DNA of 64,000 nucleotides. It comes from Lingula anatina (Eukaryota; Animalia; Brachiopoda). Under the pieces are notes generated by a model, which worked only from the letters and a program-made list of their open reading frames with translations, was not told where the DNA came from and did no database searches. Positions 51,260-63,400 of this stretch are shown piece by piece. The translations under genes and the position numbers were made by a program. Position 1 is the stretch's first letter. Each line of letters opens with the position of its first letter. The DNA lies in contig CM120640.1 in the NCBI GenBank assembly GCA_051362555.1, positions 42,696,788-42,760,787 of the forward strand, given 5' to 3'.

Positions 51260-53282
51260 TTTGGGGGGAGTATCTCGTTCTCGACATTATTCATATAAGA
51301 GTTTTACTTTCAGTACCACTTGAAATAAAAAGAAAGAGGGGAAGAATGTTGTGGCATAATACATTATAAGACCTGCGACAGAAATGGGCTCAGTTTACAA
51401 AGTGTTAATAAGAAAAGACCTATTTGGCTGTTCCGCAGGTAAAAACAAAAAACCCTCTTACCTTTGAAAAGAGGACTTAGTCTCCAAACGGTAATTGGAC
51501 TCAGTCCAGAAAACTGGGCATAGGAAAATTCCATTAGTAATAAAGGGATAACACATATGGTCATAAAGAACACGTATGGAATCAGAAAGACACCTGCAAC
51601 GAAAAAATAATTCACATTTAATGCTATTCACTTTCCATAACATGCATTAACTTTACATAACATGCCTCAACTTAAACATAAGGTATAATTTACTCTTTCA
51701 GCAGCTTTTATTTAGAATCCATATTGCAAACATAAATTGTCATGTGATCAACTGATGATCTTTCTTGACGAATGTTTTTGAAATTATTTTTTTCTGGCAG
51801 ACACGCTCCTTTGAATCGATCTTTTAAGAATCGAACTGCGGTACATCTTGCCATGAAAACAATCAAATACATTAAACATGCAGAAGGGAAATAAGAACTT
51901 GGAGAAACCTTTCAATACCGGAGTATTTTTCAGTTTTCATGCGATCAAAGCGTGACACTCTAACGTATGCCAAGCAGACGAACCGATTGTATATTTCTAA
52001 ATAAATAGGTCATCAGGTGGGGTCAAGCATAGTACAACGTTTTGGATGAAAAGTTATCAATGCCCGATCGCAAGCCTTCAAGTTTCTTTATAATAATCAA
52101 GATTTATCAAACGTAATGTATGAAGACAGATGTAAAAGACAATCGTTATAGTGGTTACGAATGCATTATTCTTTCGTTCTTCCAAAACTTGGTACGGTTT
52201 AAAAAATTGACAAAATGCAAATTCCGTTCAGCAGTGTCCATGCATAACCGAGGCTCTAATTAGTCATATTATTCGATTTTGTCTTAAATTTTGGTAGGTT
52301 GCTTTTAAGAATGTAATAATGGAACCGTTTTCTTAAAAAAAAAAGGGTCAGTTGAATGCTTCTGAATTTGACCTTTCCTCAGCAGACGGCACAACGACAA
52401 CCTCAGCCGATCGACATGATACAGGTATTGTTATATATGTTTGCTAACAGATAGCTACATGCAAGTGTCAGATTCCATAACAATGTGGGAGTATTGGGCA
52501 TAAGGCATAACAAATATAAACACATGTATTTTTGTGAAACTGCCCACTTTAGGTTGGGTCTTACTAAAGAAATTCCACAGACAAGAAAATTTCAATTCTT
52601 CAAAAGAAACATATGACAGTCTTTTTGTCGAATGCTTAGTGGAAGATATCATTTTACCTATGTCAACAGACTAAAAGAAAAACAAGAAAAATGGTCGCCA
52701 CATAGTATAAAACACAATATGGGGCCATGCCAGCCACAAAAAAAGTCACAGCAGTGACGAACATAATTTGTGCAATATTTCCATTATTCTGACTTGCCCC
52801 ACAATTCCATAATTTTCTTTGCCTTATACAGTGTACTATAGAACCCTCCCGTATGGAAGGAAATCAACGGTAATCAAAGAGAGATACAGAAGAGTTAAGC
52901 AAATATTACACTTAATGTGTACGTCACTGATGAGACTCAAATGTCATTTTTTTGTGGAATAACCCCATTTCAGGTCATTGCTCCCTCTTCCGCTGCAAAG
53001 AGGAGCTTACGATTTCAAGAGCTTTTAACGTGCACCGACTAATTTTTCTTCCTTTTTGAACGTTTTGAGAGAGATATACAATGCCATACCTCCTCCGTTT
53101 CTATAACAAAGATATGGAAACCTCCACACATTTCCGAATCCTACTGCCAACCCAATACAAGAGAGCAAAAACTCCGCCTTGTTATTCCAGTTTCCACGTG
53201 CAACATCATTCTTTGGTTTCTCTGATTTCTTTTCTAAAGGAACTGCAACTTCGTTAGCAAAGTCACTACCCTTGTCTTCCAT
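45703..53282 (-). CDS. SLC6 (neurotransmitter:sodium symporter) amino-acid transporter, glycine-transporter-like, about 621 aa, 13 coding exons
   Basis: Exons: 53090-53282 ([37 protein letters not shown]), 51462-51593, 50824-51145, 50419-50551, 49836-49970, 49126-49229 ([11 protein letters not shown]), 48672-48796, 48179-48291 ([12 protein letters not shown]), 47710-47841, 46859-46958, 46526-46626, 45973-46140, 45703-45810 (..ETKF*). The 1866 nt are in frame. TM1 has Gly rather than Asp, indicating an amino-acid and not a monoamine substrate. Confidence 0.96.
48999..49064. repeat. (TA)n microsatellite
   Basis: Directly visible. Confidence 0.97.
51216..51262. repeat. (TTTA)n microsatellite
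   Basis: Directly visible. Confidence 0.9.
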
Positions 53283-55636: not shown

Positions 55637-58600
55637 CTATAGTTCATCATGTATGTCTTCAGACTGTTTAGCAGGTGCAGTACAGGCAGCAGGAGTCTCA
55701 AAGTCAAATGTGTATTCACAACGATTTGGTTCAGCCACATTTCTTAACTCATTTTTCATTCCACAATGTAAGGTGATCTGCAAGATACAAAGAATATAAT
55801 TACACGGATAATAAAAGTAAAAAAAAAATCATTCCAGGTTTTATTCAAACTCAGGGGTGGATTTAGGCCGTCTTCTGGGTCTTCTGGAAGACGGTCAGAT
55901 TTTCAAGTTTACATTGTCAGCCATCTAATGTTTTCTGTCGGAAGACGGTCAAAAATGGAAGATGGATCAACAAAGATAATTTGGAAGACTGTCAGAAAAT
56001 ATCTCTGGATCCGCCCCTGAAACTAGTACTTGACTTTTAATCTAAGGACCAACTTATGTAATTTTTTTTTTGCATGGCTACCAAATGTGTGTAAGTTCAA
56101 CCACCTGCTTAGACTAAAGAAATCGAAACCTACTGTTGCAGATCTGTCAGGACCATTCCAGCAGCCCTGTCCTCTCTCATATTTCATTTTCAAATATATA
56201 TTTTCTTCTGGTCCTGTCCACTTGCCCCATGTTCTAAAAGTGAAGAAAATATTTTGTCACATCAATGAAGAGTTTTGTCTTCATTGTGAACCAAAGAAGA
56301 ACTCTACATCTTTAGTTACAAAGAAAAATAATTACGTATAGTAATTAAATAAATAATAATAATGCACGGAAAATATCAAACTTCTTACCCAAGACTAGTT
56401 TCGGAGCCTCCATTCTTTGGCCTCTGTGATGCTTTATCAAACGGGCAAAGCTTATATACATATTCTCTGTCAGTGTACTCAAAGCACTGGCCTTTCAGTG
56501 GGTAGAAAGCATCATCTGGTCCCAAGTCTAGGGTCAGGAAGTGATTCAAATCACTGAAAAAGAATTGCAGAAAGAACCATGCTAAACATTTTATTTCAGT
56601 TGAATGTCATTTATTGAAAATCATTTGAACTTTTGGAAATATATTTATAAAACTTGGTAACAAACTGATCATGCTAAAGAGTTCTCATTTCGCAACATTT
56701 TCAGAAAATTCTTAGCTGTACAACAGAGCATATATATATATCATCTACTTCCATATAAATAACTTACTTCATCTCATTTTCTAAATCTTTGAATTTCTGT
56801 TCAGCAACTGTGAATTCATGCCTTGCATTATCAGCAGCTAAAAAGAAAGGAAAGTTATTAGTTTGCTTCCCTTTGTTCTGTAAAAGATGCAAATAATAAT
56901 TCGGTCCCTAAAAAAAAAAAAAAAAATGCCAATTCCTCATCAAGTTTTAAAAAATTCAATTATCCTCGATGCTACATTAATGAATCCAATTGCCGTTGCT
57001 GTTCATCAGTTAAATCAAAGTTACACCATCATCAACAAAGTCTCAATGTGAAGTGTACCCCGAGACATTACCTTGTATCAAAACCTTTGTTTCTTCATCA
57101 TAATCTGGCATTTTTTCCTCTTCTTCCTCCTCTTTCTTTTCATCAGTCTGTAAAAATATCATCCATTTTAAAGACCCAAAAGTCAATGAGATTGAATAAT
57201 CTGTTATAGCAAAAACTATTGTTGACCTTGGCTGACTAATGTGCATGTCACATCTGATCTACTGAGTAAAAGGCTGCTCAACTCATCTTAGTCATCTTTT
57301 AACTCTGCCACTAGAGCAAACTGTTATTGTGTTGACAATGATTTTTACTTCCAATGATGACACATCCCCATTTAAGTATCTCAAATACATTCATTGTGGG
57401 GTCATCATCAGAGTCAACCATGTACTTAATCTGATAGCAGTGGTCTTCGCTCATCTCAAAATATACATAGGCCCATGCGCAGTGTGAAACATTGAAGAAA
57501 CACACCATTTCAGATATTAAAATGCTACATGTATATTCCAACCAATCAATAGAAGAAATACTACTGATCATAGCCAAACAAAGTTCTAATTGTGACCACG
57601 TGTCCACATTGCATAAATCCATGAAGTTCTAAGCCTGTGCCATACATTTAAGCACATGCCACAGCCATACAACATTCAAATGTTGATATTATTATCACAA
57701 TCAGCTCTTAAGCGCACTGTGAACATCTTAAGACCAAAAATATTTTGGTCAAAGTATGACAAGTACGTCCATGTCATAAGAACTTCACAAAGCCTTCATA
57801 AACATTAAATGCTATGTGAAACAAAAAAAAAAAAACTTTTTTGAAGCTATGTTTCCAAAACATGTTTCAAATGTCACTGAGAGCATTTTTTATGGATGTT
57901 TGACATGAACATTTTCAGTAATGGATGATTTCAATACTTTCATGTTCTCTGTTGAACTTACTGGTAGCACATTTCTATACACCAGACCCAAAGCTATTTG
58001 GGCTTGTCAATGATTTAAACAGGATTCAAGATTATACCAGTCTTAACAGAGTTTATCTGATATAAAGAAACACCCCTTTTCAATAGTCATTTCTTGAGAC
58101 AGAGACTATGTTAGTTTAACCCACTACGGAAGTTTCGAGAGTGGTGTTAGTGCATGCAGTGACTATTTTTTCAGGATACTGAATAGGACTTGGGAGTGTC
58201 AAAAGCAAGAAAGAAGTACCCCATATTCATGGTCTTCATCATCTTTCTCATAATCCTCATCATCTTTGTCATAATCCTCCTCCTCCTCATCATCATCACC
58301 GAGGTCTTCATCCTCCCCTCCCTGGGATTTAGTTTCCTAGAATTTTGGACGAAGCCAGGGTCAATTGTCACAGCCTGATTACTGTAGAAGCTGCCACCAC
58401 CACCACCAATATTTCAAGGCACTTCATGCCTAAAATCACCCAAACTTTTTTATCCCACAGTTATCATCTCATATTACACTAACACCATTGTCAGCTTATA
58501 CCACTTCCCAGTCTACAGTAACCCTGCATGCAATCCTGAGAGTTCTGTGCACCACACAAAATTTAAGACCTGCAGGGACAGATCAGTGAACACTGCTGAT

Positions 58601-60426
58601 TTAATATGATCATGTTTTGTACCAGATGTATTTGTGTATGACCATTTATTTGTGACTGTTTTTCATGGACAGACAGTTGATAATATTTCAGCTACTGTTT
58701 AACTCTTCAAACTTTGTTGTGAAGTGTCCAGTTTTTATACGGGTCTGAACCAGCTTGTTACATACATGTGGCACACAGTCTTTGTAATACTATGACACTT
58801 ACAACCAACAGACCTCTCATTACCTGCACCAAGTTGGTTCAAATATTTATGTAGTACCCATTCTGTTACCCTCACCAAAAACCATCCATCTACATTAAAA
58901 CCTTCGGTCTCAAAACAATTACTTCAACACATTCACAATACCATCTTATCCTAATATTCTCTGTTGTAAAATAAAACATCTCCGTTCATATTCTGAAATA
59001 CTAAGTGATCCTTACTGGTGATGGAGCGACCTCAGCCTCTTCAGGAAACTCTGCTCCCTCCTCCATCTCCTCACCAGGGGGCGTTGCCTCCCCCTTGGCT
59101 GACTCCTCTTTTTCAGGTTCTGGGAACTTTATGATATCCTTGATATTGGGCCAAACTTTCTCCTGGAATGTTTTGATGTCCACGGAATTGTGGTCTTCCA
59201 AATATTCCTGCAAAGCAGAACAAATGATTAACCATAACAGAACAATGCCTTATAATCTATGCGCTGATTGCTGTACATCTGTCACAGGATGCAAATATGA
59301 GACTGGCTTTTACAAGTAATGGTGTGCTTTTCAAAAGCATATGGCTAGCTGGCATTCATTCAAAGACAAAGCAAACCATAAAAAAAAATAAAATATTCTA
59401 CAATATATGCACACAACTTAACGTTAGATCGTGTCTAAAATAACAGAAAGTAAAAACACCACTATTTTAATAATACACAACATTAGTTTTGCACTCACTT
59501 GGGTGACCAAATGAACAAAAAATCAAGAAAGGGAAGATACATAAAATAAAAAATTATTTTCACTATTTTATTGGTCTGTTTCAGAAGATGAAAACTTTTC
59601 ACACTAAAAGCACGTGTGGCATCAAGGCAATAGAGATGACCTTCCTCAAGAAGAATCTGCTTTATATTTGGGCTCATCACTGGGATCAATATTTCCTATG
59701 ACCCCCTCCCCCACCTTTCCAGATGGTAACGTCTATGGAAGGTAAAACCATTCTAATATACTTTGGTAACAATATGTGTGCTAGTGTTTAAGGTAGATCG
59801 GTCGTTACATGTTCCAACGTTCGGATTTTTTTAAAATTTTTTTTGTTTGAAGAGACACCCAAGTACATTAAAAATTTGCAAAAAAAATTGGGAGTCACCG
59901 ACCAAATAAGAGAACTAGCCCCAAATATGATACACCCTGCATATCGCACTAGTCCCCATTCAAATCAATGGGAAAATGGGTGTTTTCTCACTAAAGCATT
60001 ATTTTTTATGACTTTCTGACGTTCGAATTTTTTTAAAAATTTTTTTGTGTAAAGAGGCCTCCAAGTACATTTAAATTTTACCAAAAAAATTGGGGGTCAC
60101 CGACCAAATAAGAGAACTACGCCAAGTTGAAGTGCATTACACCCTGCATGACGCACTATTCCCCATTCCAATCAATGGGGAAATGGGTGTTTTTCACCAC
60201 ATTATTTTTTATGATTTTTCTAACGTTTGAATTTTTTTTAAAAACTTTTTGTGTAAAGAGGCATCCAAGTAGATTTTAATTTTGCCAAAAAAGTTGGGGG
60301 TCACCGACCAAATAAGAGAACTACGCCAAGTTGAAGTGCGTTACACCCTGCGTGACGCACTTGTCGGAAGTCCCCATTCAAATCAATGGGAAATGGGTGT
60401 TTTTCACTAAATTGTTATTTTTTATG

Positions 60427-60464
<38 letters not shown>

Positions 60465-63400
60465 AAAGACATCTAAGTACATTTAAAACTTTCATTATGT
60501 TTAACAGTTGAAGTGAGTATACTCAGCTATTTTCAGATTTGTCAAACTGATGAGAAGGTGTAAGCCATTAACTTTACAACAAAATTCTTGAAGAGAATAA
60601 TAAGGGAAACACTCATGCATATGAAAATAGTTTATTGCCATTGTTATTTTTTAATGAATATAACATGAACGTGACATCGTAAACACTGTGTTGTCAAGTA
60701 AAATGAAGCGTCTGATACAAAGTATCAAATGCGGTATTCACGTGCATGCTTGCTTGCGGTGCGTTCAGTACACTTTGTTTACACTGACTAGTCAAGGTCA
60801 GAAGTGCACAATTTTTCTGTATAATATAAAGCAGTTTCAATTTTGATTAGTGAATTATCTTCAAGCTGTATGGCCATTTTCTGAACATTTGTATAAGCTA
60901 CGAAATATTTCTCAGTCCAAATTTCTCTAAGTCCAAATGAGTGGCGGTACGACGCACTTCCGGTTTTCGTCGAAATCTAAGCTGCGGTTTGCAGCACATT
61001 CAGGGCGTTCTACCTCAACATGTACGCAGCCGCTTTGATTGGAATTTACAACACTTATTCTTTACATGATATAGCATCTACGTGCATAATTTGAGAGCTT
61101 TAGCTGTCATACATCTCTAGTGCCAATTCAAATTGTAAAAGGAGCTATTCCGACGATTTCTTGAAGGGCAAGTCTATGAACGTGCTACAGTTGTCGTATG
61201 GATTCATAGTCGACAAACAATGTCGAAAATCTGTATCGATCATACAGAGTTACAGACAAGTTGATAATGTGTGTTTATCTTATAGATAATTGTTTTATTT
61301 CCTCAAATTGATAAAACAGACTGAAGTGTCGTTAGAGACGATTGACGATGCGCTGAAATTGCGCAAATCGTCAAATTACGTAACGACCGATCTACCTTAA
61401 GCAGAACATAAGTGTTAGACTTAAGGTAATGCAGGTTAGTCCCCATCATGACAAAATACTCTTGGTTTATTGGGAAGCTGTCAAACTGAGGACAAAGACT
61501 ATGGCAAACCATTCATCTTATATATCTAAATGTACTGACATCATGGCAACTTCTCGTTAATGACACAATTTGCAACTAATCCAATCATAATATCTAAATA
61601 ATAATCTCAGAAATTGGAAAACAAATGGCTTTAAAAAATCCATAGTGGTACAAGGTCCCTCCACCCCTCCCTGTGTTTACTCTGACCTTTGCCTCATCCT
61701 CCTCCACTGTCCCATTTACATCAATATCAAATTCTGAATGCGTCTGGACTTCCTCCCAGGTCACCCTGCAATCATGGACGGCAGAAAGAGCAGATCAAAC
61801 ACATCAGAGAAGAAAAACAACTCATAAAAAGGTGGAATATGAGAGTGACCATGACTGTCATAACGGGATCCTCTGATGTACACGAGGTAGCCCAATTATA
61901 TGTAGTCATCTCAAGTCCCTCCTTCGAAATAAAAGTGCACAAATCACATCAAAATACCTGTTGCTCTTGTTCTGACACCTGACCATCTGAATTTTTATCA
62001 AATTCTGGGTGTGTTGCTAGTTCTGATGTTGTTATACTGAAATAGGCATTATCATCTTTCTAAGTGCACTCAAACATTTAAGACAAATATATACAAAATC
62101 AATTCATTTTGAAATTACTGTTAATTTGAAAACCAACATAAAGGCTACCATTTAATATACATCAAACACCAATTAACAGATTATTTTGGTTTCACAGCAA
62201 ACATTTTCTTTTAACAACTCACATCCCATCTGCATTGCTGTCCAATTCTGCAAAAGCCTCTTCAACTTTCTTGGCTTCTTTTTCTGCTTCACGTAGTGAT
62301 TTTTCCTCTGAAAGATATAATTTCAGTGTATTTTTCTCATAATGGGGCACATTAAGTGTTAAAGAAACAACAGCAAATATCATTACGCCAGCAATTTAGA
62401 ATAAAGATTGTTGTAAAAATGTAATATCTAGCTATTTCAAACTAACAAAAATGTCTCTAACGAGTTTAATTAGAAATATTGACAATTTACCTTCCCAAGC
62501 TTTCTGGTGTGCATCTTTTGCTTCTTTTTCAGGCTTTTCTGCCTCATTTTTAATATCTAAAAAATAAATAAATAATAATAAATAAATAATTTAAATGGTA
62601 CAAAAAAGCAAACGGATGATATTTTTTAATACAGTGTAACTGCAAAAACTCAGTTTCAGGATTTTTTTTATATGATTACTGTCAGTTGTTAGATTTTAAA
62701 AAATATTATTTCTCTTTTATTTCTACCTCCATAAAATATCCTTTACATTTATAACTGCAATCCTTTTATTCCAAGTCAGTAGTACATCTATTAATCTGAT
62801 GAGTGGATCTGCTTAACTCATGATTAACATACTTTCTAATTCATTTTTCTTTGCCTCAGCTTCATCTTTTTCTTTTTCTAATGCTTCCAGTCTTGCCTTA
62901 AAACAAAAATAAATTTATTTAAAAGACAGAATACACAAGAAAATACCATCTTATAATCTATGTTACTCTGCCAAATTATTAAACAATAACAGATTTTATG
63001 AAGATGAACATTAAAAGGAAATTCAATTTAGTATAGATACATACGTTTGTATATATCCAGTCTACACTATTTTATAGATCTATAGAGAATTAAAATTTCT
63101 TTTTAGTGTTACAACATCAGGGATGCAACTGCCATTTAGTAAAAAAGTCAGAAATTATGGCATGGGGTCCAGGGGGCCACATAGGCTAATTATATTTTTG
63201 GCTCTCACAAAGTCTGAAATTCTGCTGGAAGTCGGAAATTTCTCATCCCTCCTACATATGATCCAATGAAGTTATTAACTTATTTGGATTTATTTTAAAG
63301 AATATCATAATGACTTACAAGTGGGACAGATATAAAAACTCACCCTTTTTTCTGTCTTTGCATCCTTGCCTTGTTTAATATAATCATCCCTGATTTTCAC

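What the first reader, a model, noticed from the sequence alone, without database searches (positions are those of the whole stretch)
61687..62036. Tandem mutually exclusive EF-hand exons in glucosidase II beta (PRKCSH)
Seen: two homologous 79-nt exons (61958-62036 and 61687-61765) with identical phases (2 to 0) and intact splice sites. Including both or neither shifts the frame, so exactly one must be used. Each completes EF-hand 1 and carries a canonical EF-hand 2 loop: [12 protein letters not shown] versus [12 protein letters not shown]. The two are highly diverged, yet both keep the Ca-liganding positions, which suggests both are under selection. Only exon B places an N-G-T glycosylation sequon inside the loop of this ER-luminal protein. 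Known: vertebrate PRKCSH has one such segment, and I know of no mutually exclusive splicing described here. Inference: a splice switch tuning Ca2+ sensing or glycosylation of ER glycoprotein quality control.
Basis: partly seen in the sequence, partly recalled or inferred. Interest (0 to 1): 0.78.

Follow-up and report, generated by a model that had tools for sequence, protein, structure and literature searches.

The report
Swappable calcium loop in glucosidase II
A lamp-shell (Lingula) gene for the helper subunit of the ER sugar-trimming enzyme glucosidase II splices in one or the other of two duplicated exons, in roughly equal shares; database isoforms of a ribbon worm, abalones and a freshwater mussel swap the same stretch, so the pair is likely ancient and likely gives two versions of a predicted calcium-binding tip.

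Summary
Confirmed. The two 79-nt exons are real, and RNA reads from 4 runs (3 studies) show all four predicted joints, with no A-to-B or skip joint listed. Exon A makes up 47-60% of joints. The protein matches Lingula anatina glucosidase II beta, and RefSeq already holds both forms as automatic isoforms X1 and X2. The same 26 residues are swapped in records of 4 of 42 lophotrochozoan genera (Lingula, Lineus, Haliotis, Sinanodonta). All four A forms have Lys at loop-2 position 2, like arthropods; all four B forms have Ile, like most mollusc and annelid records. One old duplication is favoured but not proven. The N-G-T sequon is absent from the other three B forms, and usage barely shifts between runs of unknown tissue. 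In the AlphaFold model loop 2 lacks its entering helix, and the module sits at the far tip of a coiled coil. Most likely the swap tunes calcium binding or a partner surface there (untested). An intronic RNA helix around exon A is a candidate for exclusivity. New member of a known kind; such exon pairs are common in this genome.

The parts
62223..62307 (-). Constitutive upstream exon (E7 in my numbering), 85 nt; encodes the end of the long helix and the first half of EF loop 1; ends in phase 2
   Evidence: matches the RefSeq-labelled proteins from residue 224
61958..62036 (-). Alternative exon A, 79 nt, residues 252-277; second half of EF loop 1 and all of loop 2 (Lys at loop position 2); RefSeq isoforms X1 and X3
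   Evidence: 61 and 65 joint reads; both read SNPs listed in it are synonymous
61687..61765 (-). Alternative exon B, 79 nt, same residues (Ile at loop position 2, N-G-T sequon); RefSeq isoform X2
   Evidence: (54 and 57 joint reads)
59016..59207 (-). Constitutive downstream exon (E9), 192 nt; encodes a degenerate EF-hand-like helix-strand-helix, predicted partner of EF loop 1, and the start of the acidic region
58220..58336 (-). In-frame cassette exon of the acidic stretch (E10), 117 nt; skipped in RefSeq X3 and in some reads
62141..62170 (-). Upstream arm of predicted RNA helix H1 (intron before exon A); pairing would loop out exon A
   Evidence: prediction only
61864..61895 (-). Downstream arm of predicted helix H1 (intron between A and B)
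   Evidence: prediction only
61840..61868 (-). Upstream arm of weaker predicted helix H2 (intron between A and B); pairing would loop out exon B
   Evidence: prediction only; 1 of 40 shuffles as good
61531..61556 (-). Downstream arm of predicted helix H2 (intron after exon B)
   Evidence: prediction only
56389..56552 (-). Coding stretch at the start of the MRH lectin domain, used to identify the gene
   Evidence: (100% to Lingula anatina GII-beta)

Best explanation
The glucosidase II beta gene carries two duplicated exons that are spliced in one at a time, and the swap likely yields two enzyme versions whose predicted calcium-binding tip differs in calcium binding, from a duplication that likely predates the split of brachiopods, ribbon worms and molluscs. 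Shown: either-or splicing at about 50:50 in four runs, a stop codon if both or neither exon is used, and the same 26-residue swap in records of three other genera. Inferred: A keeps the older, arthropod-like loop (Lys at loop-2 position 2, Thr at EF1 position 9, usually less acidic). B is a lophotrochozoan version (Ile at position 2, usually more acidic) that is the only form in most mollusc and annelid records seen. The module is predicted to sit at the far end of a long coiled coil, away from the alpha-binding and mannose-binding domains, so it would act on calcium binding or partner contacts rather than on catalysis. Exclusivity likely comes from intronic RNA pairing that loops out one exon, with nonsense-mediated decay removing frameshifted errors.
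For: Joints in 4 of 4 runs laid. Frameshift stops for both or neither. Identical swap boundaries with unchanged flanks in Lineus, Sinanodonta and two Haliotis species. Loop-2 position 2: Lys in 4 of 4 A forms, Ile in 4 of 4 B forms, Ile/Val in 32 and Lys in 0 of 34 other lophotrochozoan rows, Lys/Arg/Gln in 12 of 12 arthropod-type rows. Glu256 (EF1 position 12) and Asp264 (loop 2 position 1), both inside the swapped exon, are among 20 invariant columns in 95 rows. EF1 position 9 is Thr in 4 of 4 A forms and Asp in 23 of 34 other rows. Segment charge A/B: -5/-8, -6/-6, -4/-6, -3/-8. Three of four A forms group at 89/72 support, and a Haliotis-only duplication is rejected, p 0.006. Model: long helix 139-244, EF module 245-299, return helix 399-437 matched to two-helix hairpins. 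Helix H1 about -28 kcal/mol, matched by 0 of 40 shuffles and 0 of 218 real intron pairs. Mammalian PRKCSH is reported to bind calcium through its EF-hand (Gkika 2004, seen only as cited in PMC9104337).
Against: No calcium measurement exists for either form. Both loops keep the core ligand positions, and the one diagnostic residue (position 2) is not a calcium ligand in standard EF-hand numbering (recalled). Mean identity among A forms (10.7 of 26) is barely above A-versus-B across species (10.3), and Lingula A is closest to Haliotis B (15 of 26). A Lingula-only duplication is not rejected, p 0.12. The A form shows in only 4 of 21 genera with two or more records, which fits a dispensable copy. 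The two predicted RNA helices coexist in 428 of 500 sampled structures instead of competing, and the whole region folds no better than shuffles, z 0.75. Coral sequences lack most of loop 2.
Confidence: 0.42

Rival explanations
1. The swap changes a partner-binding or packing surface at the tip of the subunit (Lys versus Ile at loop-2 position 2), not calcium affinity as such.
For: The most diagnostic residue is a non-ligand position, Ile/Val in 32 of 34 other lophotrochozoan rows. B forms are more alike (14.3 of 26) than A forms (10.7). The module is predicted to be distal and exposed. Mammalian PRKCSH has reported partners such as IP3 receptors and TRPV5 (PMC10987803, passages).
Against: No partner for this module was found in the papers read. 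Ligand position 9 of EF1 and net charge also differ between A and B.
Confidence: 0.25
2. The two exons are functionally near-equivalent. Each is kept only because it must encode a working module when it is used, and A is a relic being lost lineage by lineage.
For: Usage is near 50:50 with no clear shift in four runs. Both forms get the same predicted secondary structure (the alignments held both types). A is missing from the records of 38 of 42 genera. Earlier notes of this scan list many such pairs in this genome (72 fit the look-up; unchecked).
Against: A forms in three phyla keep their own signature (Lys at position 2, Thr at EF1 position 9) instead of drifting towards B. A redundant copy should be lost or converted quickly. 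Missing records are not missing exons.
Confidence: 0.22
3. One reading: exon B adds an N-glycan inside loop 2, and the splice choice controls glycosylation of the subunit.
For: N-G-T is present in Lingula B only, and the annelid Owenia has N-G-T at the same place.
Against: The sequon is absent from the B forms of Lineus, Sinanodonta and Haliotis, and present in only 3 of 95 rows in this region. The Asn is loop position 5, which alternates between Asp and Asn (20 and 13 of 34 rows), as expected of a calcium ligand.
Confidence: 0.05
4. Origin rival (independent of function): the pairs arose by separate duplications in brachiopods, nemerteans and molluscs, and the A copies converged on Lys.
For: Species-specific A+B clades are not rejected for Lingula (p 0.12), Lineus (0.27) or Sinanodonta (0.17); the free tree leaves Lingula A unresolved. 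Independent origins are reported for mrp-1 exons (as stated in PMC7434440, passage). Sea-star records show a separate swap in the next segment.
Against: Within-species A/B pairs are the least similar class (9.25 of 26). Lys occurs in 0 of 34 other lophotrochozoan rows yet in 4 of 4 A forms. The two mollusc A forms group at 100/89, and a single A clade is not rejected (p 0.24).
Confidence: 0.2

Closest known systems
Glucosidase II beta / PRKCSH (human 8D43, mouse 7JTY; Lingula RefSeq XP_013413455-457)
   Same: Same domain order (G2B, coiled coil, EF-hand region, acidic stretch, MRH, HDEL); E 8e-149 to the human chain. RefSeq X1 and X2 differ by exactly this swap.
   Different: The human and mouse chains show one such segment. 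The mammalian splicing seen in the papers concerns seven residues in the 273-400 region (PMC12732852, passage) or non-coding and short transcripts (PMC7218327, passages). The listed solved structures model only the N-terminal or MRH domains, not this module.
coq-2 exons 6a/6e (PMC7434440, passages read)
   Same: Equal-length homologous mutually exclusive exons shared across invertebrate phyla, one resembling the outgroup sequence and one lineage-specific, told apart by one or two diagnostic residues.
   Different: coq-2 has a proven biochemical effect and life-stage regulation. Here no function is tested, usage looks constant, and the derived form is the common one.
Drosophila serpent exon 4.1/4.2 bidirectional RNA pairing (PMC4691838, abstract and sections 5 and 8 read); human ATE1 7a/7b (PMC7797038, abstract only)
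   Same: A two-exon cluster with four intronic elements: one before, two between and one after the exons, each pairing enclosing one exon.
   Different: In serpent and ATE1 the pairings are conserved, compete and were proven by mutation. Here they are predicted from one genome, the second helix is weak, and the two can coexist in the sampled folds.

Membership tests
Glucosidase II beta (PRKCSH) | N-terminal G2B domain and C-terminal MRH domain | tested here: met
   PF12999 E 1.9e-43 and PF13015 E 3.6e-26, both above cut-off; fold matches to GII-beta and MRH structures
Glucosidase II beta (PRKCSH) | EF-hand region, acidic stretch and C-terminal HDEL | tested here: met
   PF00036 above cut-off for both Lingula isoforms (28.1 and 26.3 bits versus 25.4); the matching record ends in HDEL
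Homologous tandem mutually exclusive exons | Adjacent homologous exons of equal length and phase with intact splice sites | tested here: met
Homologous tandem mutually exclusive exons | Each exon is spliced to both constitutive flanks in RNA | tested here: met
   four joints in 4 of 4 runs
Homologous tandem mutually exclusive exons | Never together and never both skipped in steady-state RNA | tested here: met
   No such row. The listing floor allows at most 8 hidden reads per class: at most 11% of A-donor joints and 6.5% of E7-donor joints. Decay of such forms is not excluded.
Canonical EF-hand (loop 2) | 12-residue loop with D-x-D/N-x-D/N-G at 1-6 and Glu at 12 | tested here: met
   both exons
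Canonical EF-hand (loop 2) | Entering helix and strand pairing with a partner EF-hand | tested here: not met
   Seven residues between the loops. The model gives a 3-residue turn (261-263) and no strand in loop 2; its strands are at 252-253 and 285-286 (prediction).
Canonical EF-hand (loop 2) | Binds calcium | not testable with these tools
   needs a binding assay
RNA-pairing-controlled exon pair (serpent/ATE1 type) | Intronic helices enclosing each alternative exon | tested here: inconclusive
   H1 beats 40 of 40 shuffles and 218 of 218 intron pairs; H2 beats 39 of 40 shuffles; both were picked after a scan
RNA-pairing-controlled exon pair (serpent/ATE1 type) | The helices compete | tested here: not met
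   both form in 428 of 500 sampled equilibrium structures; co-transcriptional folding not modelled
RNA-pairing-controlled exon pair (serpent/ATE1 type) | Conserved or compensatory pairing in relatives | not testable with these tools
   no animal genomes are held
Regulated splice switch (coq-2 type) | Exon ratio shifts with tissue, stage or condition | tested here: inconclusive
   A share 0.47-0.60 in four runs of unknown tissue, p 0.43 summed and 0.045 on downstream joints alone; 4 of 9 listed runs were laid
Glycosylation switch | Sequon confined to one exon and conserved in its orthologues | tested here: not met
   0 of 3 other B forms; 3 of 95 rows

The most novel reading that the evidence does not exclude
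An exon replacement caught half-way. An early lophotrochozoan duplication created a new calcium loop (B) that displaced the ancestral one in most molluscs and annelids, while Lingula, Lineus, abalones and unionid mussels still make both, giving two glucosidase II enzymes with different ER-calcium set points. Sea stars independently swap the next exon of the same module, which would mark this structurally unsolved tip as a tunable calcium-sensing part of glycoprotein quality control.
Probability: 0.2. Interest if true: 0.66.

Novelty: new member of a known kind. Interest (0 to 1): 0.42.

Why it matters
The EF-hand region of glucosidase II beta is not modelled in the solved structures listed, and I found no mechanistic account of it. 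A natural pair of variants, apparently kept across three phyla, gives a ready comparison for asking what this module does, including whether ER calcium feeds back on glycoprotein trimming. It is also a possible marker of gene-structure history in lophotrochozoans. Against this: duplicated either-or exons are a familiar kind, both isoforms are already in automatic annotations, many similar pairs were noted in this genome, and no functional difference or regulation is shown.

Tried and rejected
Pseudo-exon or assembly artefact: rejected; both exons are joined to both flanks in every run laid. Third copy or a duplicate of the next exon in Lingula: none found. Glycosylation as the conserved purpose: rejected. 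Steric block by a branch point near the A donor: not indicated; the A-B intron is 192 nt and has branch-like motifs 33-78 nt from its 3' end, and two weak matches lie 6 and 25 nt from the donor. U2/U12 incompatibility: the donors are ordinary GT types (U12 consensus recalled). Long exact inverted repeats around the exons: none among the 25 longest of 131 pairs. Pairing between the intron before A and the intron after B: not above shuffles, 10 of 40. No RNA holder was listed in the run index; the runs laid came by species label. No whole genome is held, so exon order in relatives is untested. The HMMER search of 50% representatives was dominated by multi-EF-hand proteins; its 14 single-stretch hits added no lophotrochozoan A form. 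The Atlas search gave no usable hit. The fold searches on full-length models returned no EF-hand match; the module was not folded alone, so this is uninformative. The tree on 26 columns is mostly unresolved. In one search the printed ends of two introns were one base off; the corrected values (2479 and 679 nt) agree. A passage search in PMC6639383 did not run, so that paper was seen only as a listing. No supplementary files were searched; MetazExp (PMC8728262, listing only) may tabulate this event.

Full report
Observation. The minus strand holds two 79-nt exons, A (62036-61958) and B (61765-61687), between a constitutive upstream exon (62307-62223) and a downstream exon (59207-59016). Both have AG/GT ends and share 42 of 79 nt and 11 of 26 residues. 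Identity is highest at second codon positions (18 of 26, against 12 and 12), as expected of old coding copies. Either exon alone keeps the frame. Both together give a stop inside B, and neither gives a stop in the next exon; such transcripts are standard substrates for nonsense-mediated decay (established knowledge). A profile built without Lingula scores the two exons equally and finds no third copy in the window.

Expression. Nine RNA runs were offered by species label. Four, from three studies, were laid on 58150-62400, with about 6-30% of each run read. All four predicted joints appear in every run: E7>A 18/11/20/12, A>E9 16/4/25/20, E7>B 17/6/17/14, B>E9 21/10/13/13. No A>B or skip joint is listed. 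The floor of 3 reads per run could hide at most 11% and 6.5% respectively. Exon A's share is 0.47, 0.48, 0.60 and 0.54. Heterogeneity p is 0.43 on summed joints (a read can span both joints, so the sums are not independent), 0.69 upstream and 0.045 downstream. Tissues are unknown, so a regulated switch is neither shown nor excluded. The two read variants listed in exon A are synonymous; 102 variant rows were not shown.

Identity. An MRH-domain exon matches Lingula anatina glucosidase 2 subunit beta at 100%. Pfam and PDB sequence searches confirm the family. RefSeq's automatic isoforms X1 and X2 differ by exactly this swap, and X3 carries A without the acidic cassette exon. The event is therefore in the databases already.

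Relatives. Three homologue searches and three cluster look-ups (30 clusters, at most 15 members listed each) gave 114 named lophotrochozoan records from 42 genera that cover the segment. One fragment was dropped, and Crassostrea and Magallana were counted as one. The same 26 residues are swapped, with unchanged flanks, in the nemertean Lineus longissimus, the mussel Sinanodonta woodiana and the abalones Haliotis rufescens and H. cracherodii. That is 4 of 42 genera with Lingula, or 4 of the 21 with two or more records. Well-sampled genera such as Mytilus (16 records), oysters (14), Mya (6), Mizuhopecten (6) and Octopus (6) show only the B type. These are gene models; their exons and reads were not visible to me, and a missing record is not a missing exon.

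Two types. At position 2 of loop 2, all 4 A forms have Lys and all 4 B forms Ile. Of 34 other lophotrochozoan rows (33 named, 1 unnamed), 32 have Ile or Val, 2 Ser and none Lys. Twelve of 12 arthropod-type rows (3 named, 9 unnamed and grouped by me) have Lys, Arg or Gln, and deuterostomes mostly Ser. So A looks like the older state and B like a lophotrochozoan novelty (inference). EF1 position 9 is Thr in all A forms and Asp in 23 of the 34 rows. B is more acidic than A in 3 of 4 genera. B forms are more alike (mean 14.3 of 26) than A forms (10.7); cross-type pairs average 10.3 and within-species pairs 9.25. On a 37-row, 26-column tree three A forms group at 89/72 and Lingula A is unresolved. 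A single A clade is not rejected (p 0.24), a Haliotis-only duplication is rejected (p 0.006), and Lingula-, Lineus- and Sinanodonta-only duplications are not (0.12, 0.27, 0.17). One duplication before these phyla split (over 500 million years, recalled) is the simplest reading, but it is not proven.

Sequon. N-G-T occurs in Lingula B and in Owenia, but in none of the other three B forms; 3 of 95 rows have any sequon in this region. The Asn is loop position 5, which alternates between Asp and Asn. Glycosylation is not the conserved purpose.

Structure. AlphaFold models of both isoforms (95-row alignments holding both types; mean pLDDT 82, block means 88-92 over residues 241-300) give the same secondary structure. 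EF loop 1 (245-256) follows a 105-residue helix, and its strand most likely pairs with a degenerate EF-like unit in the next exon (strand 285-286). Loop 2 (264-275) is preceded only by a short turn, so it is an inserted calcium-type loop rather than a full EF-hand. Glu256 and Asp264, both in the swapped exon, are invariant in 95 rows, corals excluded; corals lack most of loop 2. Structural matches to two-helix hairpins spanning residues 177-437 indicate that helices 139-244 and 399-437 pack together. This would put the module at the distal tip, far from the alpha-binding and MRH domains (inference; coordinates not seen). The solved glucosidase II entries listed cover only the N-terminal or MRH domains.

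How exclusivity may arise. A scan found a helix between the intron before A (62170-62141) and the A-B intron (61895-61864), about -28 kcal/mol. None of 40 shuffles and none of 218 pairs drawn from 10 and 31 overlapping real intron segments reached it. A weaker helix encloses B (-25.5; 1 of 40 shuffles). The layout matches Drosophila serpent (PMC4691838, abstract and sections 5 and 8 read). Against it: the helices coexist in 428 of 500 sampled folds, the region as a whole is not unusually structured (z 0.75), and conservation could not be tested. Decay of frameshifted forms may supply part or all of the apparent exclusivity.

Literature. Ten full-text searches were run, and none listed a paper describing this exon pair. 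I read passages of PMC12732852, PMC9266668, PMC9104337, PMC10987803, PMC7218327, PMC7434440 and bioRxiv 10.1101/2024.04.20.590316, the abstract of PMC7797038, and the abstract and two sections of PMC4691838. All other hits, including the single hit, were seen as listings only. Arendt 1999 and Gkika 2004 were seen only as citations. No supplements were searched, and the library lacks most subscription journals. Earlier notes of this scan hold nothing on this gene, but 72 notes in this genome fit 'mutually exclusive exon' (unchecked), which lowers the surprise.

Verdict. A real, expressed and probably ancient mutually exclusive exon pair in a core ER quality-control protein. Most likely it gives two versions of a distal calcium-binding module (0.42). 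A partner-surface change (0.25) or near-equivalence (0.22) are live rivals, and a glycosylation switch is unlikely (0.05). New member of a known kind; interest 0.42.

Noticed in passing
window 58220-58336 (-): The acidic-stretch exon is an in-frame cassette. Loose read ends at 59016 match the start of the following exon in X1 (7 reads) and X4 (8 reads), while the inclusion joint has 41 and 2 reads there, so its use may differ between samples. RefSeq X3 skips it. Lineus, Pomacea, Hetaerina and Pocillopora records also drop acidic-region segments.
   Followed up: partly
window 58220-58336 (-) versus P0003: The window encodes 39 residues in this exon and the RefSeq-labelled X1 has 40, so the window is a different haplotype or assembly from that record.
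   Followed up: partly
proteins P0204, P0280, P0279 (Patiria miniata): Sea-star records swap the segment right after loop 2 (32 versus 31 residues), and X3 skips it in frame. Acanthaster X2 resembles the second version. This looks like an independent exon duplication in the same EF module. Lingula has one copy of that segment.
   Followed up: partly
proteins P0006-P0011, P0018, P0024, P0027 (coral records and similar unnamed ones): These glucosidase II beta sequences have a 3-4 residue deletion that removes most of loop 2.
   Followed up: no
proteins P0211 (Tubulanus), P0208 (second Nucella record), P0186 (unnamed): These have Ser at loop-2 position 2, like deuterostomes, fitting neither the A nor the B signature.
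   Followed up: no
window 53091-53282 (-) and downstream: The next gene on the same strand begins here and matches the sodium:neurotransmitter symporter family (PF00209, E 1.8e-16).
   Followed up: partly
window 59785-61403: The intron after exon B holds a stretch bounded by 24-nt inverted repeats, 96% complementary (59785-59808 and 61380-61403). It has internal repeats and read cover on both strands from elsewhere, and is probably a non-autonomous DNA transposon insertion.
   Followed up: no
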